From an uncultured Campylobacterales bacterium (GTDB taxonomy: Bacteria > Campylobacterota > Campylobacteria > Campylobacterales > Sulfurimonadaceae): a stretch of 64,000 bases of DNA. The stretch lies in assembly GCA_964014335.1 (NCBI GenBank), contig CAXGZT010000001.1:926-64925 (forward strand). The letters are read 5' to 3'. Made by a program: the position numbers and the translations under genes. Positions 1 through 26,365 of the stretch are shown here, piece by piece. The notes under the pieces are model-generated. The model saw only the letters and a program-made list of their open reading frames with translations, had not been told where the DNA came from and did no database searches. The stretch's first letter is position 1. Every line of letters starts with the position of its first letter.

Positions 1-1
1 T

Positions 2-1000
2 GTAGGTGATATTTATGCGCAAGGTCACATTAAAGAGTATTACAGAGCTGAAGAAGAGCTTGGTACAATGTCAGCTATCGCTGGTGCTGCAAGAGCGGGT
101 GTTCGTCTGTTTACGGCAACATCAGGACCAGGTTTACTACGTGGTTTAGAAGCAATCGTATCATGGTCAGGTCACCGTGTTCCAGCTGTACTTGGTATCT
201 TGACTCGTGTTGTTAATGCACCTTTATCAATTCAGCCAGATAATATCGAAATGGCATACATGATGCACTGTGGTGCTGTTATGCTACATGCTGAAAACCA
301 GCAAGATACATTCGACATGACACTAGCTGCATTTGCTATTACAGAAAAAGTTGACGTTTATATTCCAGTTGCAGTTGCTACAGAAGGTTTCTTCGTAACA
401 CACGCTAAGGGTTACGTAAACATGACTTCGGAAGATCTGGCTCTAAACGATTTCGATCCAATTGCAGCTCCGGTTCCGGCTATGGATAATGAAACTCCAC
501 CAGCTAGAATCCAGCGTGATGCTCCGGTTCAAAAGTCAAACTTCATGTCTTACCTGATTCACTCAGTATGGCAACAAGAGATCTGGGATTCAAACAAGCG
601 TGCAATGAAATATATCTATGAGTACCTTGGTGGACCGATCGAAGTTCAAAACCCTGAAGCTGATATATTCGTTGTTGCTTCTGGTTGTGCGGCTGCTCAA
701 GCTCGTGAAGCATGGAGATATGCTCAAGAAGATGGTTTAAGTGTTGGTCTTATCAAAGTAAGAGCAATCAGACCATTCCCAATTGACGAAATCAGAGAAG
801 CTGCTAAAAATGCTAAGGCACTAATCGTTCCTGAGCACAACATTATCGGTTGGTTATCTAAAGAAGTTAAAGCAGCTATTCCAAACGGTGGAATTGTTGT
901 AGAAGGTCCAAGAGTATACGGTGGTATGACACTTCCAGTTGAGTTGATTATGAAAGAAATTCACACGTCTCTTGGCTTAGAGTACGATTTAAAATTATAA
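2..1000 (+). CDS. 2-oxoacid:ferredoxin oxidoreductase alpha subunit, copy 1 (5' end outside window)
   Basis: The frame is open from base 2 with no stop. It aligns along its length with the complete alpha paralog at 15631-16830 (TSGPGLLRGLE/TSGPGTLRAME, SIQPDNIEMAYM/TIQPDNLEVSYM, IRPFP, GPRVYGGM/GPRVAGGM). Beta, gamma and delta genes follow. Confidence 0.9.
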   Translation, partial: VGDIYAQGHIKEYYRAEEELGTMSAIAGAARAGVRLFTATSGPGLLRGLEAIVSWSGHRVPAVLGILTRVVNAPLSIQPDNIEMAYMMHCGAVMLHAENQQDTFDMTLAAFAITEKVDVYIPVAVATEGFFVTHAKGYVNMTSEDLALNDFDPIAAPVPAMDNETPPARIQRDAPVQKSNFMSYLIHSVWQQEIWDSNKRAMKYIYEYLGGPIEVQNPEADIFVVASGCAAAQAREAWRYAQEDGLSVGLIKVRAIRPFPIDEIREAAKNAKALIVPEHNIIGWLSKEVKAAIPNGGIVVEGPRVYGGMTLPVELIMKEIHTSLGLEYDLKL

Positions 1001-1013
1001 AGAAGGGTATATT

Positions 1014-1910
1014 ATGAGCTTAAAATATATAACTCCGGCAGAGAGATTTAAAAAATATCTACCAAAAGATTATGTAGAACTAGTTGACTACGGTCCGTTC
1101 GGAAAGACTCAAGATGAAGCTGGTCCAGGTAACATGGGTCAATTCAAAGAGTTAATGGAAGAACACCCGATGTGTTCTGGTTGTTGGATGGCATACTATA
1201 TCAGATTGGTTTTTGCTTCACTTCCATGTCCTGAAGAGACAGTAACACTTGGTACAGCCGGTTGTGGTCGTCTTGCGATCTCTCAAGCTGCTGTTCCATT
1301 TATCTATGGTAACTACGGTGACCAAAATGCGATGGCTTCTGGTCTTACTCGTGCGTTCCGTCTACGTTTCCCGGATAAGCACAAAGACGTTATTACTATC
1401 GCCGGTGACGGTGGTACTATGGATATCGGTTTCTCTATGACTATGCACTCATGGATCCGTGGTGAAAAATTCACAACGATCATGCTTGATAACGAAGTTT
1501 ACGGAAATACTGGTGGTCAAGAGTCTGGTATGTCTCCTAAGGGTGCTATCCTTAAGATGGCTCCACTAGGTAAAAAAGGTGAGAAAATGCCTGCAACTGC
1601 ATTGGCGCAAGCTGCTGGTTGTGTGTATACGGTAAGAATGTCTCCGACAAACATCAAAAAAGCTGCAAAAATCATTCGTAGAGCGATCTTTGTTGCACGT
1701 GAAGTTGGTCCAACATTCATTCACGCTTATACTTCATGTAACATCGAATACTCTATCCCTACTGAGGATGTATTCGCAGATGCAAAAGAGAAAGAGAAAA
1801 CTCGTTTTCAGTTCGAAGAGTACATGACTGATGAAGCTAAAGCAGTAATCGAACGCGTTGAAGCTGAAGAAAAAGCAGCGAAAAGAACTAAAAAAGCAGA
1901 GGCGGTTTAA
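1014..1910 (+). CDS. 2-oxoacid:ferredoxin oxidoreductase beta (TPP-binding) subunit, copy 1
   Basis: TPP motif GDGGTMDIG...NEVYGNTGGQ and N-terminal Cys cluster (CSGC). Paralog of 16832-17701. SD-like AAGGG lies upstream of the ATG. Confidence 0.92.
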   Translation: MSLKYITPAERFKKYLPKDYVELVDYGPFGKTQDEAGPGNMGQFKELMEEHPMCSGCWMAYYIRLVFASLPCPEETVTLGTAGCGRLAISQAAVPFIYGNYGDQNAMASGLTRAFRLRFPDKHKDVITIAGDGGTMDIGFSMTMHSWIRGEKFTTIMLDNEVYGNTGGQESGMSPKGAILKMAPLGKKGEKMPATALAQAAGCVYTVRMSPTNIKKAAKIIRRAIFVAREVGPTFIHAYTSCNIEYSIPTEDVFADAKEKEKTRFQFEEYMTDEAKAVIERVEAEEKAAKRTKKAEAV

Positions 1911-1911
1911 T

Positions 1912-2622
1912 ATGGCTGAGAATACTAAGAAAGAAAGATATAATATTAGAATCTCCGGACTAGGTGGACAGGGTGTTGTTACCACTGCCCACATCCTTGG
2001 TTCTACTATGGATAACGCAGGTAAATATGCATCTTTGGTACCATTCTTTGGTTCTGAAAAACGTATGGCACCGGTTGAAGCGTATGTTAGAGCTTCTAAT
2101 CAACCAATCTACGAAGTAGGTGAAGTTGTTTACCCGGATATCATTATGATCTACCACTCACAGGTTGTTACACACGGTAAATCATACACTATGCCTTTTT
2201 ACACGGGTCTAAAACCAAACAGCTTGATCATTATCAATACTGATCATGATGTTCTTAATGAAGACGATATTAAAGTTCTTAATGATCTAAATGCGACGGT
2301 TGTACAATTTGATGCGACAGGTCTAGCAATGAAAATTGCCGGTACTGAACTTGCGACAAATATGGCGATGATGGGTATGCTTCTTGGTCTTACAAAACTT
2401 GTAAATACTGATAATATCGAAGCAGCGGTAAAAGAGCGTTTCCTAGGAACTTCTTTTGTTGCTTCTGGTGGTACAGCTGCTCTGGATTCTGCAATCGAGA
2501 AAAAGTTTAAGAAAAAAGAAGAGCTGCTTGCTAAAAATATGGAAGTTATCAACAAAACTTTCGAAATGGCTGATTCTGTAGATATCACTGGATCTGACCT
2601 AATCGTCAAATTCGACATATAG
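1912..2622 (+). CDS. 2-oxoacid:ferredoxin oxidoreductase gamma subunit, copy 1
   Basis: GLGGQGVV motif and AGTELATNMAMMG. Paralog of 17701-18402. I place the start at ATG 1912 (MAENTKK), right after the beta stop at 1910, rather than at ORF-track 1858, which lies inside beta. Confidence 0.9.
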   Translation: MAENTKKERYNIRISGLGGQGVVTTAHILGSTMDNAGKYASLVPFFGSEKRMAPVEAYVRASNQPIYEVGEVVYPDIIMIYHSQVVTHGKSYTMPFYTGLKPNSLIIINTDHDVLNEDDIKVLNDLNATVVQFDATGLAMKIAGTELATNMAMMGMLLGLTKLVNTDNIEAAVKERFLGTSFVASGGTAALDSAIEKKFKKKEELLAKNMEVINKTFEMADSVDITGSDLIVKFDI

Positions 2623-2632
2623 GGAGAAATAA

Positions 2633-2857
2633 ATGTATTATGTAGCAAAAGTAGATGCAGCTAAATGTGCTGAGTACAAGTGTAATACTTGTACACTATA
2701 TTGTCCAGAAGCGAATACGCTTATGTTCGACAAAGATCGTAACACATCATGGGTAGATGAAGATAGATGTAAAGGGTGTGCACTTTGTGTATACGTTTGT
2801 ACTGACATGCTTGATCGTAACTGTATTACAATGGAAATGGCTGGTCACGAAGACTAA
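2633..2857 (+). CDS. OFOR delta subunit (2x[4Fe-4S] ferredoxin-like), copy 1
   Basis: 74 aa with CNTCTLYCP and CKGCALCVYVC cluster motifs. 71/74 aa identical to 14765-14989. Confidence 0.9.
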   Translation: MYYVAKVDAAKCAEYKCNTCTLYCPEANTLMFDKDRNTSWVDEDRCKGCALCVYVCTDMLDRNCITMEMAGHED

Positions 2858-2872
2858 TATTTTCAAGACCTT

Positions 2873-3113: not shown

Positions 3114-4370
3114 GTGAAAGTTACAGTAGAAAAAGTAGATGATATAAACTTCATTATGAGCGGTACAGTTGAAAACAGCGTGATTGAAGAAAAGGTTGCA
3201 AAACTTAAAGCTGAAGCAAAAAAAGCAGAGAAGAAAGACGAATCTGCGGATGAAAACCTTGAGCAGGATGCGGCTGGGCAAGTGTTTCAAGACTTCATAA
3301 ATGCCGGGATCAAAGAAGCTAATTTAGACGTTGAAAATATTTTGGGCCAACCCGGACTTAAGAAATATGAGCAACAAGACGATTGTATTTATTTTGAAGT
3401 AGACGTCGCGATTAGCCCTGAGATCAATGTTGATATCGATTATAACGAGATCGCTCCCGCTTATACAAAACCTACTGCCAGTCCTGAAGCGGTAGAAGCC
3501 AAACTTGCTGAATTCGCTCAAAAGCAAGCACCATTTACAAAACTTGAACAACCAAAGGCAATTGAAAACGGCGATGTTGCTGTTATCGATTTTACGGGCT
3601 TCATTGACGGCAAAGTTTTTGAAGGCGGCAGCGCTGACAAGTTTAATATCAAAGTCGGTTCCCAGCAGTTCATTCCTGGCTTTGAAGAGCAACTTGTAGG
3701 AATGGAATATGGCGAACAGAGAGATGTCATCGTAAGCTTTCCAAAAGACTATTCAGCCGAAGATTTAGCGGGTAAAGAAGCCAAGTTTGTGGTAAAACTT
3801 CATGAAATTCAAGAACAGCGTGCCGAGACTATAGATGACGCTTTTGCACAAAAAGTATTAAATAATAAAACAGCTACGCTTGATACACTGAAGAAACAGT
3901 TTGCAGAACAGGTAACGGCCGAAGAGCTATCGCAAATTTATATGCGTGACATTAAACCAAAGCTTGTCGAAAACCTGCTCGCAAAATTTGACTTTACCTT
4001 GCCGAATAATATCGTCGAACAAGAGATAGACGCAAAGGTCCGTGAAAAGACAAGAGGGTTCACTGAAGAGCAACACAAGTCTTATATGGAAGATAAGGGT
4101 AAATTCAAGGAGCTTAGAGAGTCTGTACGCGATGAAGCAAGAAAAAGCATCAAAATGGCACTTATTGTCGAAGCCCTAGCCAAGAAAGAGGGTATTGATG
4201 TACATGAACAAGAGGTAATAGCGGCCCTAGGTTACCAGGCTACGATGACCGGCCAAGACCCTCAGGCACTGGTTAAATACTACCAGGACAACAACTTGAT
4301 GACATCAGCAAAAATGGGACTCACAGAAGATAAACTTTTCGGACATATACTCGGGTTTCATAAGGCGTAA
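3114..4370 (+). CDS. tig: Trigger factor
   Basis: FKBP-type PPIase core (GDVAVIDFTGFIDGKVFEGG...QFIPGFEEQLVGM) flanked by N- and C-terminal trigger-factor-like domains. Apparent GTG start. Confidence 0.9.
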   Translation: MKVTVEKVDDINFIMSGTVENSVIEEKVAKLKAEAKKAEKKDESADENLEQDAAGQVFQDFINAGIKEANLDVENILGQPGLKKYEQQDDCIYFEVDVAISPEINVDIDYNEIAPAYTKPTASPEAVEAKLAEFAQKQAPFTKLEQPKAIENGDVAVIDFTGFIDGKVFEGGSADKFNIKVGSQQFIPGFEEQLVGMEYGEQRDVIVSFPKDYSAEDLAGKEAKFVVKLHEIQEQRAETIDDAFAQKVLNNKTATLDTLKKQFAEQVTAEELSQIYMRDIKPKLVENLLAKFDFTLPNNIVEQEIDAKVREKTRGFTEEQHKSYMEDKGKFKELRESVRDEARKSIKMALIVEALAKKEGIDVHEQEVIAALGYQATMTGQDPQALVKYYQDNNLMTSAKMGLTEDKLFGHILGFHKA

Positions 4371-4377
4371 GGGAACC

Positions 4378-5052
4378 TTGCTACTTATGAATGAGGAAGA
4401 GAATAACTGGATCCAAACGCTTTGGGACTGGGCAGATGAACACTCTGTTTCAGATTTGGAGTGGATAGAGCACGACTCTTATTTAAAGGGCGGTTATTTC
4501 AGAGGACTGCCGCGGGAGAAAGAGGCCTTAGTCAATCTGACCGAACTGAACCTTCTTGGTAGTCAACTCCCATACCTACCCCCAGAGATTGGGAATCTAA
4601 AAAATTTAAGAAAGCTCTATCTTTTAGGGAATCAATTATCAGAACTTCCAGCCGAAATAGGCAATCTGATTCATTTGGAAGAGCTTTATGCCGCCGGAAA
4701 CAGCTTAAAGCAGTTGCCGGTGCAAATCGGTTCTCTGAACAGTCTAAAGCTTCTCCTGCTGCAGGAAAATGATCTTACCGAACTTCCCAAAGAGATCGGG
4801 AAATTACAAAAGCTAGACACATTAGAGCTGGGAAAAAACCGGCTTACATCCCTGCCAACAGAGATAGGACAACTACACAATCTGACCAAATTAACACTAT
4901 GGAAGAATGCACTCACATCACTTCCTAAAGAGATAGAAAGCCTTAAAAATTTAAAACTGCTTGATTGCATCTATAATAAGATCGCGTTAACGCAAGATAA
5001 TGTTCAATGGCTAGAAGAGTTGGTTTCCAAAGAGTGTTCCGTCACCCTGTAA
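4378..5052 (+). CDS. Leucine-rich repeat protein
   Basis: About 7 tandem 23-aa LRRs (LxxLPxEIGxLxxLxxLxLxxNxL). The start could be TTG 4378 or ATG 4387. Confidence 0.75.
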   Translation: MLLMNEEENNWIQTLWDWADEHSVSDLEWIEHDSYLKGGYFRGLPREKEALVNLTELNLLGSQLPYLPPEIGNLKNLRKLYLLGNQLSELPAEIGNLIHLEELYAAGNSLKQLPVQIGSLNSLKLLLLQENDLTELPKEIGKLQKLDTLELGKNRLTSLPTEIGQLHNLTKLTLWKNALTSLPKEIESLKNLKLLDCIYNKIALTQDNVQWLEELVSKECSVTL

Positions 5053-5210: not shown

Positions 5211-5495
5211 TTAGCACCCGCAAGATGTTCCACAGCCTGAGTCGGAACTTTCCGTACTGCAACTTCCTGTACTGCAGCTTCCAGCATTGGGGTTCTCAAC
5301 CACCCTAATAGCAAACTCATGATCACCGACTCTTTGTGGAACAAATAGATGTGCTGTACAAAAATCTTCGTTCATAAATTCTGCCGCGATGTTTGTATAG
5401 TTATATGCATCTTGTTGATTTTCAAATGTTTTTTCACTCGCATATTCACTTCTTTTAAAACATGCACATTCGTGTTCCATTTTTACTGTATACAT
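5211..5495 (-). CDS. Small Cys/His protein (CxCFK...FCxxH) with Cys-rich tail; paralog of 8041-8361
   Basis: I place the start at ATG 5495 (MYTVKMEHECACFK), preceded by AGAAGGA, because the paralog starts MYKIEMEKECSCFK. C10, C12, C46 and H49 are conserved. The C-terminus is SCSTGSCSTESSDSGCGTSCGC. Confidence 0.6.
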   Translation of the reverse strand: MYTVKMEHECACFKRSEYASEKTFENQQDAYNYTNIAAEFMNEDFCTAHLFVPQRVGDHEFAIRVVENPNAGSCSTGSCSTESSDSGCGTSCGC

Positions 5496-5675: not shown

Positions 5676-6077
5676 ATGTTAATGAAAATAGGTGACGTAC
5701 AGCAAGTATCAAATGCAATGATGAATATGCTGCATGAAGAAGAGATAGGGATAATCAATGATTTTCATGATGCGGTAATAGCAAGAGATATAGAGAAAAT
5801 TGATGAGCTTTTCAAGGTTGTTTTATTTGATGTAGAGGATCACTTTAGGACTGAAGAGGAGATGATGGAACAGAGTAAGTTTTATGCCATGCAGATGCAT
5901 AAGTCTGAGCATGATACGATGCGAAAAAAGTTATATGACCTGCACGAAAGATGGGAACTGCTTAAAAGTCCAAAAGAGGTGCAAGAATTTCTAGAAGAGG
6001 AGTTTAAACGTTGGATCACTTTACATATATCAAGATGGGATTCGGAAACGGCAATGCATCTTGGTGATACAAATTAA
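5676..6077 (+). CDS. Hemerythrin-like metal-binding protein
   Basis: Bacteriohemerythrin His/Glu pattern (H..E near N-terminus, EDHFRTEEEMM, HKSEHDTM, C-terminal H...D). GAGGAG SD lies 5 nt upstream. Confidence 0.8.
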   Translation: MLMKIGDVQQVSNAMMNMLHEEEIGIINDFHDAVIARDIEKIDELFKVVLFDVEDHFRTEEEMMEQSKFYAMQMHKSEHDTMRKKLYDLHERWELLKSPKEVQEFLEEEFKRWITLHISRWDSETAMHLGDTN

Positions 6078-6174: not shown

Positions 6175-7485
6175 TTAGTTGAGTGCTTGCTCATCATTTT
6201 TGAATTTTTGGAAGTATTTACTAACAATCGTTCCAGTTTGCATATTCTCAATTTTTGAGAAGATAACATAACTAATGATACCGTGGATAACGAGAACAAT
6301 AATTAGTCCTTCAAAGATACCAACCTTAAATACTAACCCGGCACAGACGGTTGCAAGCAGTACAGCATAAGGTCCAAATTCTGCAGTGTGTAACAGACCT
6401 AAGAACATTTTAATACCAACAAACGACATAATAATTGCCAATGCAAAGTACGGTAAATAGTGTAAGTATTGAGAGTTTAATACAAAGAATGTAATTAGTA
6501 CACCAATCACCAATACCGATAGTTTAGTATACGCACCTGCAAGACGGTTTGTTGATGATTTTGCTAATCCATCAAGGTTTGTCATACCACCAAAGAAGCT
6601 GGCACCCATGTTTGATACCCAGATTGATAATAGTGAGTTGTTTGAATTAGATGGACGTTTTAATGGATCGATTTTTTCGATTGCTGCATTACTCATAACT
6701 TGTTCAATAACATCAACCACAGCCAGCATCAACGAGAAGAAGATTGCATAAACCCATAAACCTACTGAATCAAAATCAGGGATTGGCAATGCAAGAGCGA
6801 ACTCAACATCTTTTACATCAAGCATCTTTACATCAACAAATAAAGAAGCCACGATACCATAGACAATCAAAGTAAAATACGGTAACGCTGGTTTTGTATC
6901 TTTAAACATTTTAAATAAAACAAGAAAAAGAATTGTACCGACTATTGACAGTGCAATGATTTGGATACGAGCATCGCTAAAAAACTCTTCACCTACAGCC
7001 ATACCGGCTGGTAACATCCATAAGAAAGGTAAGAATTTAAGAGCAATTTTTAAACCGATACCAGCCAATAAGCCTTCAACCAAGTACGATGGAACAGCCA
7101 TTAAAAGATAGCGTTGCCAGTTAAATTTCCATATGATTGCTTGAAATGTTGCCGTCATAAAAATAATAAAGGCCATGTTTTCCATTCCGAATTTTGCAAC
7201 CCCCATCGCAAGAATTGGGGCTAAACCTGCTGCAATTCCGGGAGCACCTATATAGTTACCTGGACGGAATAGAGCAAATATGAATGCTATGAAGGATGCA
7301 AAAGCAACTGTTGCAAGTCCTACTTGAATTGGATAATCTGACATCAAGGCAATACCAATAGATAATGGGATTGCCATGGTTGCCGTAATGACACCAGCTG
7401 AGAGGTCACGAGTAGCATATTTTGCAACAAATGCTGCAGAGCCGTGATCAACGTTCTGGTTTTGTTTAGTATCTACGTTTTCCAT
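6175..7485 (-). CDS. SulP/SLC26-like anion permease lacking a STAS domain
   Basis: N-terminus RDLSAGVITATMAIPLSIGIALMS resembles the SulP signature, and roughly 11-12 hydrophobic segments follow. At 436 aa the protein ends without a cytoplasmic STAS region. The family call comes from motif recognition only. Confidence 0.55.
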   Translation of the reverse strand: MENVDTKQNQNVDHGSAAFVAKYATRDLSAGVITATMAIPLSIGIALMSDYPIQVGLATVAFASFIAFIFALFRPGNYIGAPGIAAGLAPILAMGVAKFGMENMAFIIFMTATFQAIIWKFNWQRYLLMAVPSYLVEGLLAGIGLKIALKFLPFLWMLPAGMAVGEEFFSDARIQIIALSIVGTILFLVLFKMFKDTKPALPYFTLIVYGIVASLFVDVKMLDVKDVEFALALPIPDFDSVGLWVYAIFFSLMLAVVDVIEQVMSNAAIEKIDPLKRPSNSNNSLLSIWVSNMGASFFGGMTNLDGLAKSSTNRLAGAYTKLSVLVIGVLITFFVLNSQYLHYLPYFALAIIMSFVGIKMFLGLLHTAEFGPYAVLLATVCAGLVFKVGIFEGLIIVLVIHGIISYVIFSKIENMQTGTIVSKYFQKFKNDEQALN

Positions 7486-11981: not shown

Positions 11982-13588
11982 GCTTTATCCTTTTTAAAAA
12001 TTTTGAATAGACTGAAATAGTGTCCCTCTTTTACTAAGAACTTGTAAAACAACCACTTCATGTTATTAGGTTTAAATTCCGCTTTTGGAGTGTCCGTCAA
12101 ATGCTGTTTATACATAAACAACCATCCAATAATCATAATAGCAGCCACTATGATAAGTGATGTCACGATGGTCACATTAAGCGTTGCAGCTTTGTAAAAC
12201 AGCAATGCATCATCTCCATAGATGAAGTGTTCAAGAGCCAATCCGACGAATTCATACGTAAACAAGATAATGATAAACGAACTGACTAAGGCAAATATCA
12301 CCTTAAGTGATTCTGACTTTGACACCTTGAAAAATGACAAGAAAAGCTGGGTACCTGTCAACCAAGCAAATGCCAAAATCACGATTGAAGCATTAAACTC
12401 AAAGAACTCTTCACTCAGCACCATCTTGACACCGATAAAGACAAGTACCGGCAAGATAGTAAAAAACGCCAAATAATTAAAGATCTTTTTGCTATTACTT
12501 TTGATCTTCTCTTCCCAGAAAAGCTCATAAGTAAGACGCTTAGGAAGGTTCGAATCATGTCTCGCCAACTTAATAAGGCCACCCGACTCCAAGAAAAGAG
12601 AGGCTTTAAAGATACCGTGAACCATAAGGTGGTAGATTGCAAGAGAGAAAGCGCCAAGCCCAACTTCCATAATCATGTATCCCATCTGTCCTACTGTTGA
12701 ATATCCAAGAGAACGTTTTATATCAGAGACGACAAGCATAACCAGCGATGCGAAGATAGCGGTGAAGAGGCCGACCACAAAAGCGATGTTAAGTACAGCC
12801 GGTGTCAGTAGTAGCAAGTAGGCGAGCTTATTAAGTAAAATCCCGCCAACATTAACGACTCCCGCATGCATAAGCGCCGAGACAGGCGTAGGAGCCTCAG
12901 ACGTGTATGGCAACCAGATATGAAACGGTGCGATTGCTGACTTCATCATCGCTGCTATCAAGAAAAGCAGTCCTATCATAAAGATTATTGGATTGTCAAC
13001 GGGGTTTTGAGACATGGCCAACCATTTTTCACTCAATATCGCCAGATCAAAACTTCCGAACGTTTTATAAGTCAATACAACTGCAAATATAAATACGAGA
13101 TCAGCCCCTTTATGAACAACCATCGTCCACTTGGCATTTTTAACGGCAGAGTTTGAACCTACGTTGAATGAAACAAGAAGGTATAGACTAATACTCATCA
13201 ACTGCCAGGCTAAAGCAAGTACGATAAGGTTATTACTCATAACCAACAGGTAAATTGCCGAGAAGATAAAGTTTAAAAGAATAAAGAATCTTCGATAACC
13301 CGGTTCGTCCCACATATATTTAGTCGCATATTTACGAATAACCAACCCTAAAATAGCGACATAAGGAACCAATATCGCCGACAGCTCATTGTAGATCACT
13401 AAACCGTCAAAGCCAATGATCGGAGTACCGTTGCTGATAACATGGTATGTTCCATACAGCCCAAGCAGTGCGACCATGCTTGAGAGCATTATACTGATTT
13501 TCGGAATAAGCTCTTTTTTGCTCACAAAAAATAGAATGAACGCTATAACGATCGGAATGCTTGGAATAAGCAATATTATTTTTTCCAC
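11978..13588 (-). CDS. dabB: NuoL/MnhA-like proton-conducting membrane subunit (PF00361-type), DabB-like
   Basis: 536 aa and highly hydrophobic. Antiporter-like motifs are present (WQLMSISLYLLV, PFHIWLPYTSEAPTPVSALMHAGVVNVGG, SLGYSTVGQMGYM). GTG start with AGGAG 6 nt upstream. Confidence 0.85.
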   Translation of the reverse strand: MEKIILLIPSIPIVIAFILFFVSKKELIPKISIMLSSMVALLGLYGTYHVISNGTPIIGFDGLVIYNELSAILVPYVAILGLVIRKYATKYMWDEPGYRRFFILLNFIFSAIYLLVMSNNLIVLALAWQLMSISLYLLVSFNVGSNSAVKNAKWTMVVHKGADLVFIFAVVLTYKTFGSFDLAILSEKWLAMSQNPVDNPIIFMIGLLFLIAAMMKSAIAPFHIWLPYTSEAPTPVSALMHAGVVNVGGILLNKLAYLLLLTPAVLNIAFVVGLFTAIFASLVMLVVSDIKRSLGYSTVGQMGYMIMEVGLGAFSLAIYHLMVHGIFKASLFLESGGLIKLARHDSNLPKRLTYELFWEEKIKSNSKKIFNYLAFFTILPVLVFIGVKMVLSEEFFEFNASIVILAFAWLTGTQLFLSFFKVSKSESLKVIFALVSSFIIILFTYEFVGLALEHFIYGDDALLFYKAATLNVTIVTSLIIVAAIMIIGWLFMYKQHLTDTPKAEFKPNNMKWLFYKFLVKEGHYFSLFKIFKKDKA

Positions 13589-13641
13589 TAAAAACTCCTA
13601 TAATCCACTAAAAATTCCTATCTACTAAAAATTCCTATCTA
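13586..13641 (-). repeat. Three imperfect tandem repeats (17-20 nt) across the dabB start/leader
   Basis: On the minus strand: TAGATAGGAATTTTTAG / TAGATAGGAATTTTTAGTG / GATTATAGGAGTTTTTAGTG. The last copy supplies the SD and the GTG start of dabB. Confidence 0.7.
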
Positions 13642-14764
13642 TTAAATGTTAAGATTCGCCATCAATTATGGCCAGTACACTAACTCATAGTGAAATGAAC
13701 ACGAAGTTTTATCAAAACTACCTTCATAAGACCTTTGAAATTATAAATTAATGTTTTAAATAATGGTTATATAAAAAACACAATTATACCCAAGAGTTGC
13801 ACTTCAAAGTTTGATGCTGCCACTTTATGGTGTGGCTTAATTCAATATCAATGAGAGTGAGCATATCCTCATACTACACGCTTTCTTCTGCTATAGTCCA
13901 ATAGACATTTTAGATAAAAGCCTCGACTCCTTCAACATGCAGACCTTCAATAAACCATCAATTGCGGAGGAGTTTAAAGCAGCATCTACCTAAACATCGG
14001 AATTCTTAATTTTTTAAATTGTATCCAACCACTGCTTAATCGCTTTACTATGAAGATTTTTAGCATTTATGTTTTTAAGTCAAGTTAAATATGCAAATTG
14101 CAATCAATTACGAAAGCTAAATTTTAGGTGCATCAGCAGTCGTTACTAACGCCACTCTGAGCTTTGAGTAAAAAAACTCAAGCGCAGTAGATGTCGCATA
14201 GGCCATACTTTAATATAGAGGTCATGATCTCCCGACAATATTTAGAGCACAACATTCTGTTTTTCCAGACACTTGTTACTTTTTGTAATGTAATTTCCCC
14301 CTGGTCAACAGGTGACAGGCGAACATTGTTGAAATGAAGTCACTGCCAATGATCAAACACTTTAGCAATCAAAGGCTCGTAGTTAACCAAACTCTACTGA
14401 GCGATGACTCCATTCAGCCAACAGAGAGTTAAAATGAGCTTTTAGCCGCGATATTTTCATACTGATGACCCTCTTGTCATTCATGCTTTGGAGAGAACTC
14501 TGCGTGTAAATAATTAAATAAATCCTTGCGTTATTTCTTTACCTGTTTGTAGCAATTCAAGTTTATTTATAAAAGTATTTTAATCTCTAAATTAAGGAAG
14601 AGTGAAAGGTTTTTTAAGTAAAGTCCCATTTGAGAAACATATTGAAAAACATAAACGTAGCTGATGAAAAATTTGTTATGAATACTGTAAGTGATTCGTT
14701 CTTGTAATTTTTTTGATGCTACATAACTAAATTATATATGTTCAATTCATCATATGGAGTATAA

Positions 14765-14989
14765 ATGTATTATGTAGCAAAAGTTAATTCTGACATGTGT
14801 GCTGAGTACAAATGTAACACGTGTACACTATATTGTCCAGAAGCCAACACGCTAATGTTCGATAAAGATAGAAATACATCTTGGGTAGATGAAGATAGAT
14901 GTAAAGGGTGTGCACTTTGTGTGTACGTATGTACTGATATGCTTGATCGTAACTGTATTACGATGGAAATGGCTGGTCACGAAGACTAA
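14765..14989 (+). CDS. OFOR delta subunit (2x[4Fe-4S]), copy 2
   Basis: 74 aa, same Cys motifs as copy 1. GGAG SD upstream. First gene of operon 2. Confidence 0.9.
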   Translation: MYYVAKVNSDMCAEYKCNTCTLYCPEANTLMFDKDRNTSWVDEDRCKGCALCVYVCTDMLDRNCITMEMAGHED

Positions 14990-15047: not shown

Positions 15048-15617
15048 ATGGCAAATCAAGGTCCTGCGTATTATTCACCGTATCCTGCGGCTACGTATGA
15101 AGGTGTAATCACACCTCCAGAAGGAAAAGCACTTTTATTAGAAGATGTGGTAGATGAAGAAATTGCAATGAGAGAGATTGCAAAACAGATGTTGACAAGA
15201 GAAAATGCGACTATTTTCCCTGGTCCGCAAGTATTATACGGTTTCAACGAAGAAGCGAAGAAGAAAGCTACACTTATCAAAGAGATGGCAGAAGTTCTTA
15301 ATGCTAAGATGATCCCAATGTATGACTACAGACCAAAATATCCAAAGATTGATGCTGAAGTAGAGATCAATCCGAATCATCCAAACTTAACAATTTGGCA
15401 CAACGATATTAAAGCAGCAATCTTTATCGGTGTTCACTGTCATTATGCAAATGTTGCATTAAAGATCGTAAGAGCAGAGACTGACTGTTATACAATTGCA
15501 ATTTGTGGTTTGTCAGGGCATGAAGATGCTATGGCTACATTAAGAGACCAGCATTCTTCAGAGCTTGAGAAATTCATCAAAATAGCTAAAGAAGTTAAAG
15601 CTGAGCTTGGTAAATAG
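15048..15617 (+). CDS. Fifth (epsilon-like) subunit of a five-subunit OFOR
   Basis: 189 aa with a GAGGAG SD, sitting tightly between the delta and alpha genes. Size and position fit the extra subunit of Hydrogenobacter-type five-subunit Por/For enzymes. The assignment rests on context, not on a recognised motif. Confidence 0.55.
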   Translation: MANQGPAYYSPYPAATYEGVITPPEGKALLLEDVVDEEIAMREIAKQMLTRENATIFPGPQVLYGFNEEAKKKATLIKEMAEVLNAKMIPMYDYRPKYPKIDAEVEINPNHPNLTIWHNDIKAAIFIGVHCHYANVALKIVRAETDCYTIAICGLSGHEDAMATLRDQHSSELEKFIKIAKEVKAELGK

Positions 15618-15630
15618 GTAGGAGATAATA

Positions 15631-16830
15631 ATGAGTAAAATTACTGATATGACAGAAACACACAACTGGTCTGGACAGAAATTAGTTTCTACAGACCACC
15701 TGCTTTTCGAAGCTCCAAGAGAAAAGCACTTCATGACTGGTTCTGAAGTTTTAAAAGAAGCGGTAAAAAGATGTACGGTTGATGCGTCTGTATCATACCC
15801 TATTACACCACAGTCTGAAGCGGCTCACCTTATCGGTGAACTATGGGCTGAAGGTTATGTAGGTACATACTTCCGTGGTGAGAATGAGTTTGGTGTTATG
15901 TCTGAGGTTGCTGGTTGTGCGATGGCCGGTGCTAGAACGATCACAACGACTTCTGGTCCGGGTACACTGCGTGCAATGGAAAACTTTGCACAATGGTCTG
16001 GTACAAGAATCCCTTGTCAACTTATCCTTATGGCTCGTGGTATCAACTCACCACTAACTATTCAGCCGGACAACTTGGAAGTTTCTTACATGCTAGAAAC
16101 TGGCTGTCAAATCTGGTACGCTGAAAACGTGCAAGAACTATTCGACATGTCAATCGCAGCATTCACAGTAGCTGAAAAGCCGGATGTTCATGTTCCGATT
16201 ATTACAGTTGTAGATGGTTTCTTTGTATCTCACACACGTGAAGCGGTTATGCTTCCGGCTGATGATATTGCATTACACCCATACAACCCATATGCGGCTC
16301 CGTTACCTCCGATTGACTCTGAGACTCCTCCGGGACGTTTCCTAAGAGATCCATTCGTAATGAAGTCTAACTATATCTCTTATGCGACACACGCTTCATG
16401 GCAGTTTGAAGTAAGATCTGCAGTTGAGCGTTCACGTCCATATGCTGAGCATTACCTAAAAGGTCTTGTTCATGTTACTGGTGATGAAGATGCTGAGATT
16501 GCATTTGTTACTTGCGGTACTGCATCTAATCAAGCAAAAGAAGCACAAAGAGATTTAGCTAAGCAGGGTGTCAAGTCTAAAGTTATTAAACTTAGAACTA
16601 TCAGACCATTCCCAGAAAAAGAACTTCTTGCAGCACTTGACGGTGTTAAGCATGTTTTCGTACCGGAATTCAACGTTGTTGGTTGGTTAGAGAAAGAAGT
16701 TAAAACAGCACTTTACAAGAAACATGACGCTGAAATAGTTGGCGGTCCAAGAGTTGCTGGTGGTATGAGCTTACCTTCTGAAGCAATTCTTAAAGAAGTA
16801 TTTGAACACATTAACGTAGAAGGAGCATAA
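15631..16830 (+). CDS. 2-oxoacid:ferredoxin oxidoreductase alpha subunit, copy 2
   Basis: 399 aa. YPITPQSE, TTSGPG, IQPDN and IRPFP motifs. Confidence 0.92.
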   Translation: MSKITDMTETHNWSGQKLVSTDHLLFEAPREKHFMTGSEVLKEAVKRCTVDASVSYPITPQSEAAHLIGELWAEGYVGTYFRGENEFGVMSEVAGCAMAGARTITTTSGPGTLRAMENFAQWSGTRIPCQLILMARGINSPLTIQPDNLEVSYMLETGCQIWYAENVQELFDMSIAAFTVAEKPDVHVPIITVVDGFFVSHTREAVMLPADDIALHPYNPYAAPLPPIDSETPPGRFLRDPFVMKSNYISYATHASWQFEVRSAVERSRPYAEHYLKGLVHVTGDEDAEIAFVTCGTASNQAKEAQRDLAKQGVKSKVIKLRTIRPFPEKELLAALDGVKHVFVPEFNVVGWLEKEVKTALYKKHDAEIVGGPRVAGGMSLPSEAILKEVFEHINVEGA

Positions 16831-16831
16831 G

Positions 16832-17701
16832 ATGGCAATTGATATTTATAAAATCAACCCTGAGTTTAGAGACATTATGCCTAAAGAGATCATTGATCTT
16901 GAGGAAAATGCAACATGGGCTCAAAACCAAGAGAAACCTCGTGGTATTAAAGAGCTTCCAGAAACAAAAGAGATTCTTGAAGAGCACTCACTATGTGCTG
17001 GTTGTCCGGAAGCTGCAGCTTTACGTTATGTACTTTCTGCACTGCCTAAACCGGAAGAGACAATCATCGTTAACTCAACGGGTTGTACGTCTTTAATGTT
17101 CCCGCACATCGCACTACATACTGTACACTCACTATTTGGTAACCAAAATGCAGTTGCATCTGGTATCAAAAGAGTTCTTGACTGGAGATTTCCAGATACT
17201 GAGAAAGATGTTGTCGTTCTAGCGGGTGACGGTGCTACAGTTGATATCGGTCTTGACTATACACTTCAATCTTTCTTCCGTCAGGAAAAGATCACGACGA
17301 TCTGTTTTGATAATGAAGTATATGCAAATACTGGTGGTCAAGAGTCCGGTGCTACGGCAAAGGGTCAAGTATTTAAAATGGCTCCAACTGGTAAAAAGTT
17401 TGAAAAAGTACCTATGTGGGAACTTGCTACGACTTCTGGCTGTCACTACTCTATCAACATGACTGCATCTGCTCCAAAAGCGGTTGCTAAAGCAGTTAGA
17501 GAAGCGATCCTGGTTGCAAGAGAAATCGGACCGACATTCATCAATCTTTATACTCCATGTATCCTTGAGATTGGACTAAGTGCAAACGAAGGTCTTGGTG
17601 AGATGAAAGATCAAGATAAAGGTAGATTTACAGCATACAAGCATATTTCTCCAGAAGCAGAAGAGTTCTTGAAAAAATGTAAAGCGGAAGGAAAATTATA
17701 A
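16832..17701 (+). CDS. 2-oxoacid:ferredoxin oxidoreductase beta (TPP) subunit, copy 2
   Basis: GDGATVDIG...NEVYANTGGQ and a CAGC Cys motif. Confidence 0.92.
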   Translation: MAIDIYKINPEFRDIMPKEIIDLEENATWAQNQEKPRGIKELPETKEILEEHSLCAGCPEAAALRYVLSALPKPEETIIVNSTGCTSLMFPHIALHTVHSLFGNQNAVASGIKRVLDWRFPDTEKDVVVLAGDGATVDIGLDYTLQSFFRQEKITTICFDNEVYANTGGQESGATAKGQVFKMAPTGKKFEKVPMWELATTSGCHYSINMTASAPKAVAKAVREAILVAREIGPTFINLYTPCILEIGLSANEGLGEMKDQDKGRFTAYKHISPEAEEFLKKCKAEGKL

Positions 17702-18402
17702 TGGCAAAAGATTCAATCAAAGTAAGACTTCCGGGTCTAGGTGGTCAGGGTGCGGTAACTGCTGCACACATCGCAGCAACAGCAGCAGATACTGATGGTT
17801 ACTATGCTGTATCTAACCCATTCTTTGGTGCAGAAAAGCGTATGGCTCCGTCTGAGTCTTATGTAAGACTCGGTACTGTGCCTATTTACGATAGAGGGGA
17901 AGTTATTTACCCTGATATCGTTATGATTTTCCACCCACAAGTTATTACTATGGGTAAATCATACACTATGCCTTTTTATGCAGGTATTAAAGAAAATGGT
18001 CTGGTTATCATCAACTCTGACAAAGACCTTTTAACTGATACGGATAGAAAGATCCTTGATGACCTAAACGTTAAAGTACTTACAAAAGACTTTACTCAGT
18101 TCGCTATCGATAAAGCTGGTACAGAACTTGCAACAAACATGGCTATGCTAGGTGCACTATTTGGTGCTCTTGGTACAGTTTCTAAGCCTGCTATTGAAGA
18201 AGGTATCAAAGACCGTTTCCTTAAGAAATATACAGCTTCAGGTGGTACGGCTACACTTGACTCGGTTATTGAGAAAAAATTCAAGAAGAAACAGGAACTT
18301 ATCCAGAAAAACCTTGACACTGCATCTGCAGCATTTGATCTAACTGCTGCATGGGCAAAAGAAGTTGGTCTAGAGCAAATTCTAGAGCCTGCTAAGAAGT
18401 AA
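17701..18402 (+). CDS. 2-oxoacid:ferredoxin oxidoreductase gamma subunit, copy 2
   Basis: GLGGQGAVT and AGTELATNMAMLG. TAATG overlap with beta. Confidence 0.9.
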   Translation: MAKDSIKVRLPGLGGQGAVTAAHIAATAADTDGYYAVSNPFFGAEKRMAPSESYVRLGTVPIYDRGEVIYPDIVMIFHPQVITMGKSYTMPFYAGIKENGLVIINSDKDLLTDTDRKILDDLNVKVLTKDFTQFAIDKAGTELATNMAMLGALFGALGTVSKPAIEEGIKDRFLKKYTASGGTATLDSVIEKKFKKKQELIQKNLDTASAAFDLTAAWAKEVGLEQILEPAKK

Positions 18403-18411
18403 TACTTCATA

Positions 18412-18440
18412 TTACAACTGTGCCTTTGGTACAGTTGTAA
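18412..18440 (+). terminator. Hairpin after OFOR operon 2
   Basis: Perfect 10-bp stem TTACAACTGT-N9-ACAGTTGTAA, 10 nt after the gamma stop. Confidence 0.5.
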
Positions 18441-26363: not shown

Positions 26364-26365
26364 GG

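What the first reader, a model, noticed from the sequence alone, without database searches (positions are those of the whole stretch)
1..18440. Carbon-fixation island: two OFOR operons bracket candidate inorganic-carbon uptake genes
Two paralogous multi-subunit 2-oxoacid:ferredoxin oxidoreductase operons are present (...A-B-G-D at 2-2857 and D-E-A-B-G at 14765-18402). These are the CO2-fixing pyruvate and 2-oxoglutarate synthase types of the reductive TCA cycle. Between them lie a DabAB-like operon, a SulP-like permease, a hemerythrin and two copies of a small Cys/His protein. DAB-type and SulP-type DIC transporters are best known next to Calvin-cycle or carboxysome genes. Here they sit physically beside rTCA carboxylating enzymes, which suggests a CO2-concentrating module feeding ferredoxin-dependent carboxylases. 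Which operon is POR and which is OGOR cannot be decided from sequence alone.
Basis: partly seen in the sequence, partly recalled or inferred. Interest (0 to 1): 0.65.

Follow-up and report, generated by a model that had tools for sequence, protein, structure and literature searches.

The report
Inorganic-carbon pumps beside rTCA carboxylase operons
A marine sulfur-oxidising bacterium keeps its two oxygen-tolerant CO2-fixing enzymes of the reverse TCA cycle next to a CO2 pump and a bicarbonate-type transporter; the layout is strongly conserved, but its main elements have already been described in the literature.

Summary
Window 1-19526 holds two five-subunit (Aquifex/Hydrogenobacter-type) 2-oxoacid:ferredoxin oxidoreductase operons. 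Between them lie a three-gene DAB/DAC CO2 pump, two paralogous small Cys/His proteins, a SulP permease without a STAS domain and a hemerythrin. A COG0523 GTPase follows the second operon.

New here:
- Gene order and subunit sizes assign operon 1 to 2-oxoglutarate synthase and operon 2 to pyruvate synthase.
- The linkage is near-obligate. Starting from DabA, 29 of 30 full-flank loci have an OFOR gene within 10 kb. Starting from POR alpha, 17 of 18 Campylobacterota-type loci have DAB. It persists through at least six gene arrangements and reaches Hydrogenothermaceae, but not Aquificaceae-like clusters.
- The SulP is about 80% identical to one inside a Thiomicrorhabdus carboxysome locus.
- The small Cys/His proteins are uncharacterised but follow DabA in 56 of 59 loci.

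However, DAC-OFOR co-location in rTCA phyla (Scott 2024, 2026), five-subunit Por/Oor with hemerythrin in Campylobacterota (Molari 2023; a 2026 preprint) and DIC uptake by the same three-subunit DAC architecture (Sulfurovum sp. AR) are published. Functional coupling is inferred, not shown. The OFORs use CO2 while DAB makes bicarbonate, and metatranscriptomes show OFOR transcripts far above DAB transcripts. Verdict: a real and coherent locus, a new member of a known kind.

The parts
2..1000 (+). OGOR (For-type) alpha subunit; about 67 N-terminal residues and the preceding CODH-like subunit gene lie beyond the window start
   Evidence: POR_N and PFOR_II domains. 44.5% identical to the OFOR-2 alpha, aligning from its residue 68. 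In relatives a ~237-aa PF02552-like gene precedes it.
1014..1910 (+). OGOR beta subunit (TPP-binding)
   Evidence: TPP_enzyme_C.
1912..2622 (+). OGOR gamma subunit (start at ATG 1912, not at the TTG of the longest ORF)
   Evidence: PF01558. TIGR02175 110 bits, above the 81.1 cut-off. Sequence read.
2633..2857 (+). Ferredoxin-like 2x[4Fe-4S] subunit, copy 1 (last gene of the OGOR operon)
   Evidence: Fer4 families. 94.6% aa and ~91% nt identical to copy 2.
3114..4370 (+). Trigger factor (housekeeping; a neighbour, not a component)
   Evidence: TIGR00115 276.8 bits against a cut-off of 180.2. Follows the OGOR operon in many Sulfurimonas loci.
4378..5052 (+). Leucine-rich-repeat protein (neighbour; role unknown)
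   Evidence: LRR families. Travels with tig in relatives.
5211..5495 (-). Small Cys/His protein A: CxC...CxxH core plus a Cys-rich C-terminal tail. The likely start is the internal ATG at 5495.
   Evidence: Translation. Alignment of 120 homologues. No Pfam or NCBIfam family.
5676..6077 (+). Bacteriohemerythrin
   Evidence: PF01814. TIGR02481 53.9 bits against a cut-off of 51.75. Directly follows DabA in Hydrogenothermaceae loci L045 and L047.
6175..7485 (-). STAS-less SulP-family permease; candidate bicarbonate transporter
   Evidence: PF00916 only. No PDB relative. 76-80% identical homologues in Thiomicrorhabdus, Hydrogenovibrio and Thioglobus. Lies inside the T. indica alpha-carboxysome locus.
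8041..8361 (-). Small Cys/His protein B: CxC...CxxH core plus an acidic tail. Immediately downstream of DabA.
   Evidence: A homologue of protein A or B lies within 1.5 kb after DabA in 56 of 59 loci.
8383..11253 (-). DabA, the cytoplasmic (C) subunit of the DAC
   Evidence: PF10070, E=1.6e-208. Zn ligands and Asp-Arg dyad conserved against PDB 9rd0.
11250..11981 (-). Small membrane 'T' subunit of the three-subunit DAC
   Evidence: No family. At least five strongly hydrophobic segments. Present in 58 of 58 loci. Its size matches the 729-bp T gene of Sulfurovum sp. AR.
11978..13588 (-). DabB, the NuoL/Mrp-like membrane (M) subunit of the DAC
   Evidence: PF00361 and PF00662. Hits DabB2, PDB 9rd0_B, at 1.3e-39.
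13589..14764 (.). 1.2-kb divergent intergenic region between the DAB and POR operons (presumed promoters)
   Evidence: No ORF of note. No Rfam family reaches its gathering score in the window apart from one tRNA. The same divergent layout occurs in 56 related loci.
14765..14989 (+). Ferredoxin-like 2x[4Fe-4S] subunit, copy 2 (first gene of the POR operon)
15048..15617 (+). CODH-epsilon-like fifth subunit of POR (189 aa)
   Evidence: PF02552, E=6.7e-49. 78% identical to the 189-aa subunit of an Aquifex-type PFOR cluster.
15631..16830 (+). POR alpha subunit
   Evidence: POR_N and PFOR_II. 72-79% identical to Aquificota-type loci.
16832..17701 (+). POR beta subunit
   Evidence: TPP_enzyme_C.
17701..18402 (+). 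POR gamma subunit
   Evidence: PF01558. TIGR02175 113.4 bits, above the 81.1 cut-off.
18555..19526 (+). COG0523 (CobW/ZigA-like) metallochaperone GTPase. Follows POR gamma in nearly all relatives.
   Evidence: cobW and CobW_C domains. Walker A GVGKTT and GCICC motif. Synteny.

Best explanation
This is a conserved autotrophy neighbourhood of a marine Sulfurimonas/Sulfuricurvum-like Campylobacterales genome.

Two five-subunit, Aquificota-type (reported oxygen-tolerant) carboxylases of the reductive TCA cycle flank the other genes:
- 2-oxoglutarate synthase (window 2-2857, gene order CODH-like/alpha/beta/gamma/Fd);
- pyruvate synthase (14765-18402, gene order Fd/CODH-like/alpha/beta/gamma), followed by a COG0523 GTPase.

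Between them lies a three-subunit DAC/DAB complex (M-T-C). It uses the membrane potential to hydrate incoming CO2 to HCO3- in the cytoplasm. This lineage has also acquired a carboxysome-type, STAS-less SulP that probably imports HCO3-, and a hemerythrin that probably buffers or senses O2 near the Fe-S enzymes.

Together the transporters raise the cytoplasmic inorganic-carbon pool, so that the rTCA carboxylations can run where O2 is high and CO2 is low. HCO3- serves pyruvate or other biotin carboxylases directly. CO2 for POR, OGOR and isocitrate dehydrogenase is reached after re-equilibration.

Shown: gene identities, catalytic residues and the conserved linkage. Known from the literature: DIC accumulation by this DAC architecture, and POR/OGOR activities of the Aquifex orthologue layouts. 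Inferred: co-regulation, the direction of benefit to the OFORs, the substrate of the SulP, and the role of the two small Cys/His proteins (guessed to be metal-binding accessory or regulatory proteins of the DAC).
For: - Domain content.
- DabA keeps C407, D409, R411, H656 and C671. These equal C351, D353, R355, H524 and C539 of H. neapolitanus DabA2.
- Operon gene sizes of 1611, 732 and 2871 bp match the Sulfurovum sp. AR three-subunit DAC (1614, 729 and 2880 bp). That complex raises DIC in E. coli and rescues a C. necator strain lacking carbonic anhydrase.
- The biochemically assigned A. aeolicus clusters are PFOR = Fd, CODH-like (21.3 kDa), alpha, beta, gamma and OGOR = CODH-like (27.6 kDa), alpha, beta, gamma, Fd. 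The window and its relatives show the same orders, with CODH-like subunits of 189 aa and ~237 aa. An Aquifex-like locus carrying the diagnostic Uma2 insert is 72-78% identical to OFOR-2.
- Linkage: 29 of 30 loci forward, 17 of 18 reverse, through at least six arrangements, including the Hydrogenothermaceae.
- SulP contexts: a carboxysome locus; isocitrate dehydrogenase; biotin carboxylase with PurK, PurE and a beta-CA. T. pelophila SulP-CS takes up DIC.
- Published parallels.
Against: - POR and OGOR use CO2, whereas the DAC product is HCO3-. No carbonic anhydrase, shell or other barrier is encoded in the locus, so a carboxysome-like concentrating step is missing.
- In eight sediment and seawater metatranscriptomes, contigs at least 85% identical to the OFOR operons reach depths from a few to several thousand (hundreds to thousands in the two deepest sediment runs). 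Those on the DAB operon stay at 0-12, about the level of tig. The comparison is biased because DAB sequences diverge faster and contig depth is a crude measure.
- Aquificaceae-like five-subunit clusters have no DAB within 10 kb. L011 and L133 are exceptions within the Campylobacterota.
- Besides the window, the SulP sits in this neighbourhood in 2 of the 154 related loci (L001-L154) that were scanned.
- DABs also serve heterotrophs, so linkage need not mean a dedicated CCM.
Confidence: 0.62

Rival explanations
1. Co-inheritance without dedicated coupling. The five-subunit OFOR pair and the DAC arrived together on a horizontally spreading segment, or simply sit in a recombination-prone region. 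The DAC serves the general cellular need for bicarbonate (anaplerosis, PurK, biotin carboxylases), as DAB/MpsAB does in heterotrophs. It is not a concentrating mechanism for POR and OGOR.
For: - The five-subunit variant is sporadic within genera and is proposed to be horizontally acquired from Aquificota.
- DACs occur in heterotrophs.
- The product is HCO3-, not the CO2 that OFORs use.
- Transcript depths of the OFOR and DAB operons differ by two to three orders of magnitude.
- The near-identical Fd-subunit repeats and the many rearrangements point to a plastic region.
Against: - The linkage survives at least six different rearrangements, with DAB always 1-2 kb from an OFOR operon. That argues for selection on proximity.
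- A second, unrelated DIC transporter type (SulP) has independently landed in the same neighbourhood in two layouts: the window, and L005/L007.
- The same SulP clade sits beside other carboxylases elsewhere.
Confidence: 0.25
2. The SulP-like permease is not a DIC transporter. It would be an ordinary anion permease (sulfate, thiosulfate or dicarboxylate) that happens to lie in this locus.
For: - PF00916 covers many substrates.
- NCBIfam hits only DauA and sulP, and only weakly.
- There is no STAS domain and no PDB relative, not even BicA.
- One T. pelophila SulP failed to rescue CA-free E. coli.
- Contexts L157 and L160 show no carbon link.
Against: - An 80%-identical homologue lies inside the alpha-carboxysome locus of Thiomicrorhabdus indica.
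- 88-89%-identical Sulfurimonas homologues lie next to isocitrate dehydrogenase, or next to biotin carboxylase, PurK, PurE and a beta-CA.
- The clade appears among the named hits only in chemolithoautotrophic lineages of two phyla.
Confidence: 0.25
3. The OFOR operons are catabolic or non-rTCA 2-oxoacid oxidoreductases (for example for branched-chain or aromatic 2-oxoacids), so there is no carbon-fixation module.
For: No alpha, beta or Fd-like subunit reaches an NCBIfam cut-off; only the gamma subunits pass the subfamily model TIGR02175. The best hits include VOR, oxalate and phenylglyoxylate enzymes at low scores.
Against: - The CODH-epsilon-like fifth subunit is reported so far only from five-subunit OFORs of the Aquificaceae type.
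- Subunits are 72-81% identical, in the same order, to Aquificota clusters whose PFOR and OGOR activities were identified by activity staining and mass spectrometry.
- The same genes are among the most expressed in S. pluma and in the metatranscriptomes examined here.
Confidence: 0.03

Closest known systems
Three-subunit DIC-accumulating complex (DAC, M-T-C) of Sulfurovum sp. AR; DAB1 and DAB2 of Halothiobacillus neapolitanus
   Same: PF10070 cytoplasmic subunit with the Cys2His zinc site and Asp-Arg dyad. NuoL-like PF00361 subunit. A small membrane gene between them. Gene sizes nearly identical to the Sulfurovum AR genes.
   Different: The window's DabA is about 60-69% identical to DabA in Sulfurovum-labelled loci; identity to strain AR itself was not measured. 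Two small CxC...CxxH proteins follow DabA. They were not part of the three-gene sets listed for heterologous expression, and none of the papers read here mentions them. The DAB2 whose structure is solved is a two-subunit form that matches only parts of this DabA (best stretch 623-937).
Five-subunit Por (porEDABG) and For (forDABGE) of Hydrogenobacter thermophilus and Aquifex aeolicus
   Same: The same five subunit types, the same two gene orders and the same size difference between the CODH-like subunits. 72-81% identity to Aquificota-type loci.
   Different: - The two ferredoxin-like subunits are 94.6% identical here, and many Sulfurovum-type loci carry a single gene for them between the two operons. 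A. aeolicus has its own ferredoxin-like subunit gene in each cluster (Fd2 and Fd3).
- The clusters flank a DAC here, which Aquificaceae-like clusters do not.
- No biochemistry exists for any Campylobacterota enzyme of this type.
Five-subunit OOR/POR cluster of Sulfurimonas pluma and of surface-ocean Campylobacterota MAGs (Molari 2023; bioRxiv 10.64898/2026.09.02.748891)
   Same: The same enzyme variant and phylum. The por and oor operons lie close together, with hemerythrin in the neighbourhood.
   Different: Those papers do not mention DAB/DAC: 'DabA' and 'inorganic carbon' each occur 0 times in Molari, and 'DAB' 0 times in the preprint. Here the DAC is the most constant neighbour.
Co-location of DIC-toolkit genes with rTCA carboxylase genes (Scott et al. 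2024 AEM; 2026 FEMS Microbes)
   Same: The same observation and the same hypothesis. DAC and CA genes are commonly within 10 genes of OFOR genes in Campylobacterota, Aquificota and Nitrospirota, and co-expression could help the carboxylases.
   Different: Their survey used 76 finished genomes and did not sort OFORs by substrate or type. This report ties the linkage to the five-subunit pair, assigns POR and OGOR, quantifies the linkage in 154 loci, and adds the small proteins and the carboxysome-type SulP.
Carboxysome-locus SulP (SulP-CS) of Thiomicrospira and Thiomicrorhabdus
   Same: 80% identity to the SulP inside the T. indica carboxysome locus, with the same length and no STAS domain. A carboxysome-adjacent SulP of T. 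pelophila takes up DIC in E. coli.
   Different: The host uses the rTCA cycle and has no carboxysome in this locus. Identity to the T. pelophila protein that was actually tested was not measured.

Membership tests
DAB / DAC vectorial carbonic anhydrase pump | Cytoplasmic subunit of family PF10070 (DabA) | tested here: met
   E=1.6e-208, covering profile positions 2-747 of 747.
DAB / DAC vectorial carbonic anhydrase pump | Zinc site Cys2His plus the Asp-Arg dyad (C351, D353, R355, H524, C539 in DabA2) | tested here: met
   FCLDVRSE and GHGS...LDCGAC align with the PDB 9rd0 sequence. C407, D409, R411, H656 and C671 are invariant in 13 homologues.
DAB / DAC vectorial carbonic anhydrase pump | Adjacent PF00361 (NuoL/Mrp-like) membrane subunit in the same operon | tested here: met
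   DabB 11978-13588 overlaps the next gene by 4 bp. Hits DabB2 at 1.3e-39. Present in 58 of 58 loci.
DAB / DAC vectorial carbonic anhydrase pump | For the three-subunit type: a small membrane 'T' gene between M and C | tested here: met
   243-aa hydrophobic protein at 11250-11981. Definition taken.
DAB / DAC vectorial carbonic anhydrase pump | Energy-dependent accumulation of DIC from CO2 | not testable with these tools
   Reported for the Sulfurovum sp. AR complex of the same architecture. Not measured for this protein.
Five-subunit 2-oxoacid:ferredoxin oxidoreductase (Aquificota Por/For type) | Five genes together: alpha, beta (TPP), gamma, a 2x[4Fe-4S] ferredoxin-like subunit and a CODH-epsilon-like (PF02552) subunit | tested here: met
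   All five are present for OFOR-2. OFOR-1 shows four in the window; the fifth is present upstream in relatives and is cut off here.
Five-subunit 2-oxoacid:ferredoxin oxidoreductase (Aquificota Por/For type) | Operon orders as in the characterised enzymes (POR: Fd, CODH-like, alpha, beta, gamma; OGOR: CODH-like, alpha, beta, gamma, Fd) | tested here: met
   CODH-like subunits of 189 aa and ~237 aa against 21.3 and 27.6 kDa in A. aeolicus.
Five-subunit 2-oxoacid:ferredoxin oxidoreductase (Aquificota Por/For type) | Carboxylating activity with low-potential ferredoxin, and tolerance to O2 | not testable with these tools
   Known only for H. thermophilus and A. aeolicus.
SulP-type bicarbonate transporter (BicA-like) | SulP transmembrane domain PF00916 | tested here: met
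   E=9.2e-23.
SulP-type bicarbonate transporter (BicA-like) | C-terminal STAS domain, as in BicA and most SulP/SLC26 proteins (stated from my own knowledge) | tested here: not met
   436 aa with PF00916 only. No PDB relative at E<0.01. It should therefore not be filed as BicA-like. Its closest relatives, including the carboxysome-locus one, also lack STAS.
SulP-type bicarbonate transporter (BicA-like) | Demonstrated HCO3- transport | not testable with these tools
   Only genomic context is available, plus a tested carboxysome-adjacent SulP in T. pelophila whose relatedness to this protein was not measured.
CO2-concentrating mechanism in the strict sense | Active DIC uptake plus a device that delivers CO2 to the carboxylase (a compartment or a co-localised carbonic anhydrase) | tested here: not met
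   Candidate uptake systems are present. No CA, shell protein or other barrier was found among the ORFs scanned in 1-19800.
CO2-concentrating mechanism in the strict sense | Induction by low DIC | tested here: inconclusive
   Only field metatranscriptomes could be examined. OFOR depth is far above DAB depth, but the conditions are not controlled and the mapping is biased.
COG0523 metallochaperone GTPase | Walker A motif plus the CxCC metal-binding motif, and a CobW_C domain (motif definition from my own knowledge) | tested here: met
   GVGKTT and GCICC in the translation. PF02492 and PF07683. Scores are below all NCBIfam equivalog cut-offs.

The most novel reading that the evidence does not exclude
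The five-subunit POR/OGOR pair, the three-subunit DAC with its two CxC...CxxH proteins, the COG0523 GTPase and (variably) hemerythrin and SulP would form one transferable 'oxic, low-CO2 autotrophy cassette'. It would have moved as a unit between Aquificota (Hydrogenothermaceae) and Campylobacterota, and it would be what lets the rTCA cycle work in oxygenated seawater. Within it, the small Cys/His proteins and the GTPase would be new dedicated metal-delivery or regulatory factors for the pump, and a single ferredoxin-like subunit would be shared by both carboxylases.
Probability: 0.3. Interest if true: 0.65.

Novelty: new member of a known kind. Interest (0 to 1): 0.4.

Why it matters
How rTCA autotrophs obtain enough CO2 in oxygenated, alkaline seawater is an open question, raised explicitly in the 2024 and 2026 surveys. 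This locus shows that, in Campylobacterota, the oxygen-tolerant carboxylase pair and a validated type of CO2 pump are almost never separated. That makes one concrete hypothesis testable in culture: an 'oxic plus low-CO2' module.

It also flags three cheap targets:
- two uncharacterised small Cys/His proteins that always accompany the pump;
- a carboxysome-type SulP shared at ~80% identity between Calvin-cycle and rTCA chemolithoautotrophs;
- a ferredoxin-like subunit apparently shared by both carboxylases.

For engineering carbon fixation, a compact DAC-plus-OFOR gene set is a natural blueprint.

Tried and rejected
- NCBIfam equivalog models could not name POR or OGOR; all alpha and beta scores were far below the cut-offs.
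- PDB sequence searches with both alpha subunits gave the same ranking, with Methanosarcina-type PorA first, so they did not discriminate between substrates.
- For small protein B, AlphaFold2 gave a moderate model (pLDDT 70.7, beta-beta-alpha-beta-beta). Foldseek against the PDB gave nothing below E=0.4. Pfam and NCBIfam gave nothing.
- A profile search of 1.8 billion representatives found only 106 relatives, mostly 66-70 aa. Standalone members sit in unrelated contexts, so context gives no function.
- The T subunit has no PDB relative even at E=10.
- Rfam found only one tRNA in the window.
- Promoter and terminator scans were not above the shuffled controls.
- A k-mer screen of the divergent DAB-POR intergenic region in 56 loci gave only short AT-rich matches. 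I did not interpret them.
- The rank correlation of DabA with POR-alpha identity across loci was weak (0.40) and contaminated by paralogue cross-hits. I did not use it as evidence for co-transfer.
- The supplementary tables of Scott 2026 and the paper by Schmid 2021 are not held.
- No RNA run holds the window's own strain. Only related sequences in metatranscriptomes were available.

Full report
**What is there.**

- OFOR-1 occupies 2-2857 on the plus strand: alpha (cut by the window edge), beta, gamma (true start at ATG 1912) and a 74-aa 2x[4Fe-4S] subunit.
- OFOR-2 occupies 14765-18402: a 74-aa ferredoxin-like subunit, a 189-aa CODH-epsilon-like subunit (PF02552), then alpha, beta and gamma.
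- On the minus strand between them lie DabB (11978-13588), a 243-aa membrane protein (11250-11981), DabA (8383-11253; PF10070, E=1.6e-208) and a 106-aa Cys/His protein (8041-8361).
- After a gap come a SulP-family permease (6175-7485), a hemerythrin on the plus strand (5676-6077) and a paralogous Cys/His protein (5211-5495).
- The interval also holds a bona fide trigger factor and an LRR protein (3114-5052). A COG0523 GTPase with a GCICC motif follows OFOR-2 (18555-19526).

DabA homologues place the organism among marine Sulfurimonas/Sulfuricurvum-like Campylobacterales; the best non-self hit is 91% identical. The DNA is found in marine metagenomes. The rest of the window is ordinary chromosome: the S10/spc ribosomal cluster with SecY, two-component systems, a TonB receptor and others.

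**The two OFORs.** Both belong to the five-subunit type first described in Hydrogenobacter and Aquifex. In relatives, a ~237-aa CODH-like gene precedes the OFOR-1 alpha gene. OFOR-1 therefore has the order CODH-like/alpha/beta/gamma/Fd, and OFOR-2 has Fd/CODH-like/alpha/beta/gamma.

In A. aeolicus, activity staining plus mass spectrometry assigned the cluster Fd, CODH-like (21.3 kDa), alpha, beta, gamma to PFOR. It assigned CODH-like (27.6 kDa), alpha, beta, gamma, Fd to OGOR (PMC10052474). The orders and the two CODH-like sizes (189 aa and ~237 aa) match.

A metagenomic locus (L152) reproduces the published Aquifex PFOR cluster, including its odd Uma2 insert. Its CODH-like subunit is 78% identical and its alpha subunit 72% identical to OFOR-2. 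I therefore assign OFOR-2 to pyruvate synthase and OFOR-1 to 2-oxoglutarate synthase. This is an inference from orthology and synteny, not from biochemistry. NCBIfam models and PDB searches could not discriminate.

**The DAB operon.** DabA keeps the zinc ligands and the Asp-Arg dyad of H. neapolitanus DabA2, whose cryo-EM structure and mutagenesis define the active site. DabB matches DabB2 and NuoL.

The 243-aa hydrophobic protein between them corresponds to the 'T' subunit of three-subunit DACs. Gene sizes here (1611, 732 and 2871 bp) are almost those of the Sulfurovum sp. AR complex (1614, 729 and 2880 bp). That complex raises internal DIC in E. coli and rescues a Cupriavidus strain lacking carbonic anhydrase (PMC11934965, citing Schmid 2021). 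The pump function is therefore well grounded for this architecture.

**Is the neighbourhood conserved?** I tested this in both directions.

- Forward, from DabA. I took 74 loci from species-representative genomes (53-86% identity) and scanned them with all window proteins. DabB and the T gene are present in 58 of 58 loci. A small Cys/His gene follows DabA in 56 of 59. Of 30 loci with at least 7 kb on both sides, 29 carry OFOR genes, 28 the POR-type alpha, 25 the OGOR-type alpha, and 24 both.
- Reverse, from POR alpha. In metagenome contigs chosen without reference to DabA, 17 of 18 full-flank loci at 80% identity or more carry the DAB operon. None of the loci at 72-75% identity (Aquificaceae-like) does. 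Two loci at 75-77% identity and two Hydrogenothermaceae MAGs do.

The linkage persists through at least six arrangements: divergent, convergent, tandem and co-directional. That argues for selection on proximity rather than inertia. The window's own arrangement is shared with L002, L045 and L047.

**The SulP.** It has no STAS domain and no relative in the PDB. It should not be called BicA-like.

It does belong to a tight clade (76-94% identity) found in Sulfurimonas, Sulfurovum and Sulfuricurvum, and in the gammaproteobacterial chemolithoautotrophs Thiomicrorhabdus, Hydrogenovibrio, Thiomicrospira and Ca. Thioglobus. The contexts of members of this clade are:

- In Thiomicrorhabdus indica, the 80%-identical gene lies inside the alpha-carboxysome locus.
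- In one Sulfurimonas-like contig it follows isocitrate dehydrogenase.
- In a Sulfurimonas contig it lies between a biotin carboxylase and PurK/PurE, near a beta-CA and a second SulP that has a STAS domain.
- Two other contexts are uninformative.

A carboxysome-adjacent SulP of T. pelophila takes up DIC in E. coli, while another SulP from the same organism does not. A bicarbonate transporter role is therefore likely but unproven. Besides the window, the gene lies in this neighbourhood in 2 of the 154 related loci (L001-L154; L005 and L007).

**The small Cys/His proteins.** The two copies share a ~65-residue core with an invariant CxC...CxxH. Copy B carries an acidic tail, and copy A a Cys-rich tail. 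They have no Pfam or NCBIfam family. Every source that names one calls it hypothetical.

A profile search of 1.8 billion representatives finds only 106 relatives, mostly 66-70 aa. The few that carry a source name are from Campylobacterota. The AlphaFold2 model (pLDDT 70.7) is a beta-beta-alpha-beta-beta domain with no PDB match. Standalone members lie in unrelated contexts.

The heterologous constructs listed in PMC11934965 contain only the three DAC genes. These proteins are therefore not essential for activity. My best guess is that they are metal-binding accessory or regulatory factors. Confidence in that guess is low.

**Mechanism and its weak points.** The most economical reading is a module for oxic, low-CO2 water. 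It would combine carboxylases of the type reported as O2-tolerant, a PMF-driven CO2-to-HCO3- trap, in some lineages a bicarbonate importer, and a hemerythrin. For the hemerythrin there is a Campylobacter precedent of protecting Fe-S enzymes (title cited; that the protected enzymes are Por and Oor is my own recollection).

The weak points are these:

- POR, OGOR and isocitrate dehydrogenase use CO2, not HCO3-.
- The locus has no carbonic anhydrase and no barrier against CO2 leakage.
- In eight sediment and seawater metatranscriptomes, contigs at least 85% identical to the OFOR operons have depths from a few to several thousand (hundreds to thousands in the two deepest sediment runs). Those on the DAB operon reach 0-12, similar to tig. 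This comparison is biased, because DAB sequences diverge faster and contig depth is crude. It gives no support for stoichiometric co-expression.

**Comparison with the literature.**

- Scott et al. (2024, 2026) already report that DAC and CA genes are commonly co-located with OFOR genes in Campylobacterota, Aquificota and Nitrospirota, and they propose facilitated carboxylation.
- Molari et al. (2023) described five-subunit OOR/POR in S. pluma.
- A 2026 preprint describes adjacent five-subunit por and oor operons with hemerythrin and globin genes, and proposes acquisition from Aquificota. It does not mention DAB.

The finding is thus a clear new instance of a published pattern. What this analysis adds is:

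- the tie between the DAC and specifically the five-subunit pair;
- the POR/OGOR assignment;
- the quantified two-way synteny;
- the small accessory proteins;
- the carboxysome-type SulP;
- the shared or duplicated ferredoxin-like subunit.

**Verdict.** Novelty: a new member of a known kind. Interest is about 0.4.

Noticed in passing
window 2633-2857 and 14765-14989: The two ferredoxin-like subunit genes are ~91% identical in DNA and 94.6% identical in protein, and the similarity stops at the gene ends. The alpha and beta paralogues are only 42-45% identical. The two genes form 225-bp direct repeats 12.1 kb apart. This suggests gene conversion or a recent duplication, and a substrate for rearrangement.
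   Followed up: partly
L030, L036-L039, L102, L108 and others (Sulfurovum-type loci); window joints 2625->14764, 2805->14954: Many relatives have a tandem form: OGOR (CODH-like, alpha, beta, gamma), ONE ferredoxin-like gene, POR (CODH-like, alpha, beta, gamma), CobW-like gene. The single small gene is at once the last gene of one canonical operon and the first of the other. Metatranscriptome contigs show this joined form as RNA. This implies a subunit shared by both carboxylases.
   Followed up: partly
window 18555-19526: A COG0523 GTPase with Walker A and GCICC motifs follows POR gamma in nearly every related locus, including the Hydrogenothermaceae. ZnuA/ABC-3 zinc-uptake genes lie near the SulP homologues in L159 and L160. 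Whether the GTPase serves DabA's zinc site or the OFORs is unknown.
   Followed up: no
L045 and L047 (Hydrogenothermaceae MAGs): In the Aquificota version of the island, a hemerythrin 52-55% identical to the window's takes the place directly after DabA that the small Cys/His protein holds in Campylobacterota.
   Followed up: no
window 6001-8000: The SulP segment has the lowest G+C of the window (0.354 against 0.40-0.48). The protein is ~80% identical to gammaproteobacterial homologues. Both facts are consistent with recent horizontal acquisition.
   Followed up: partly
window 19781-22581: Just beyond the island lie an OmpR-type response regulator, which recurs downstream of the CobW-like gene in L079 and L082, and a chemoreceptor with a CZB zinc-binding domain preceded by a PAS protein. 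A possible regulatory or taxis link was not examined.
   Followed up: no
L161 6001-6207; L162 6001-6213: Standalone 68-70-aa members of the CxC...CxxH family occur at the end of a CheA/CheW-CZB/ParA/response-regulator cluster in a Sulfurimonas MAG and in Arcobacter roscoffensis. The domain is therefore not restricted to DAB operons.
   Followed up: partly
window 13589-14764: The divergent region between DabB and the POR operon is unusually long (1.2 kb) and has no convincing ORF or Rfam match. A short motif, AAAGGTTTTTTA near 14605, recurs in 19 of 56 related intergenic regions.
   Followed up: partly
window 22653-22740; 25605-36018: A tRNA-Ser (GGA) and the S10/spc ribosomal protein cluster with SecY and methionine aminopeptidase. 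These show that the island sits in core chromosome.
   Followed up: yes
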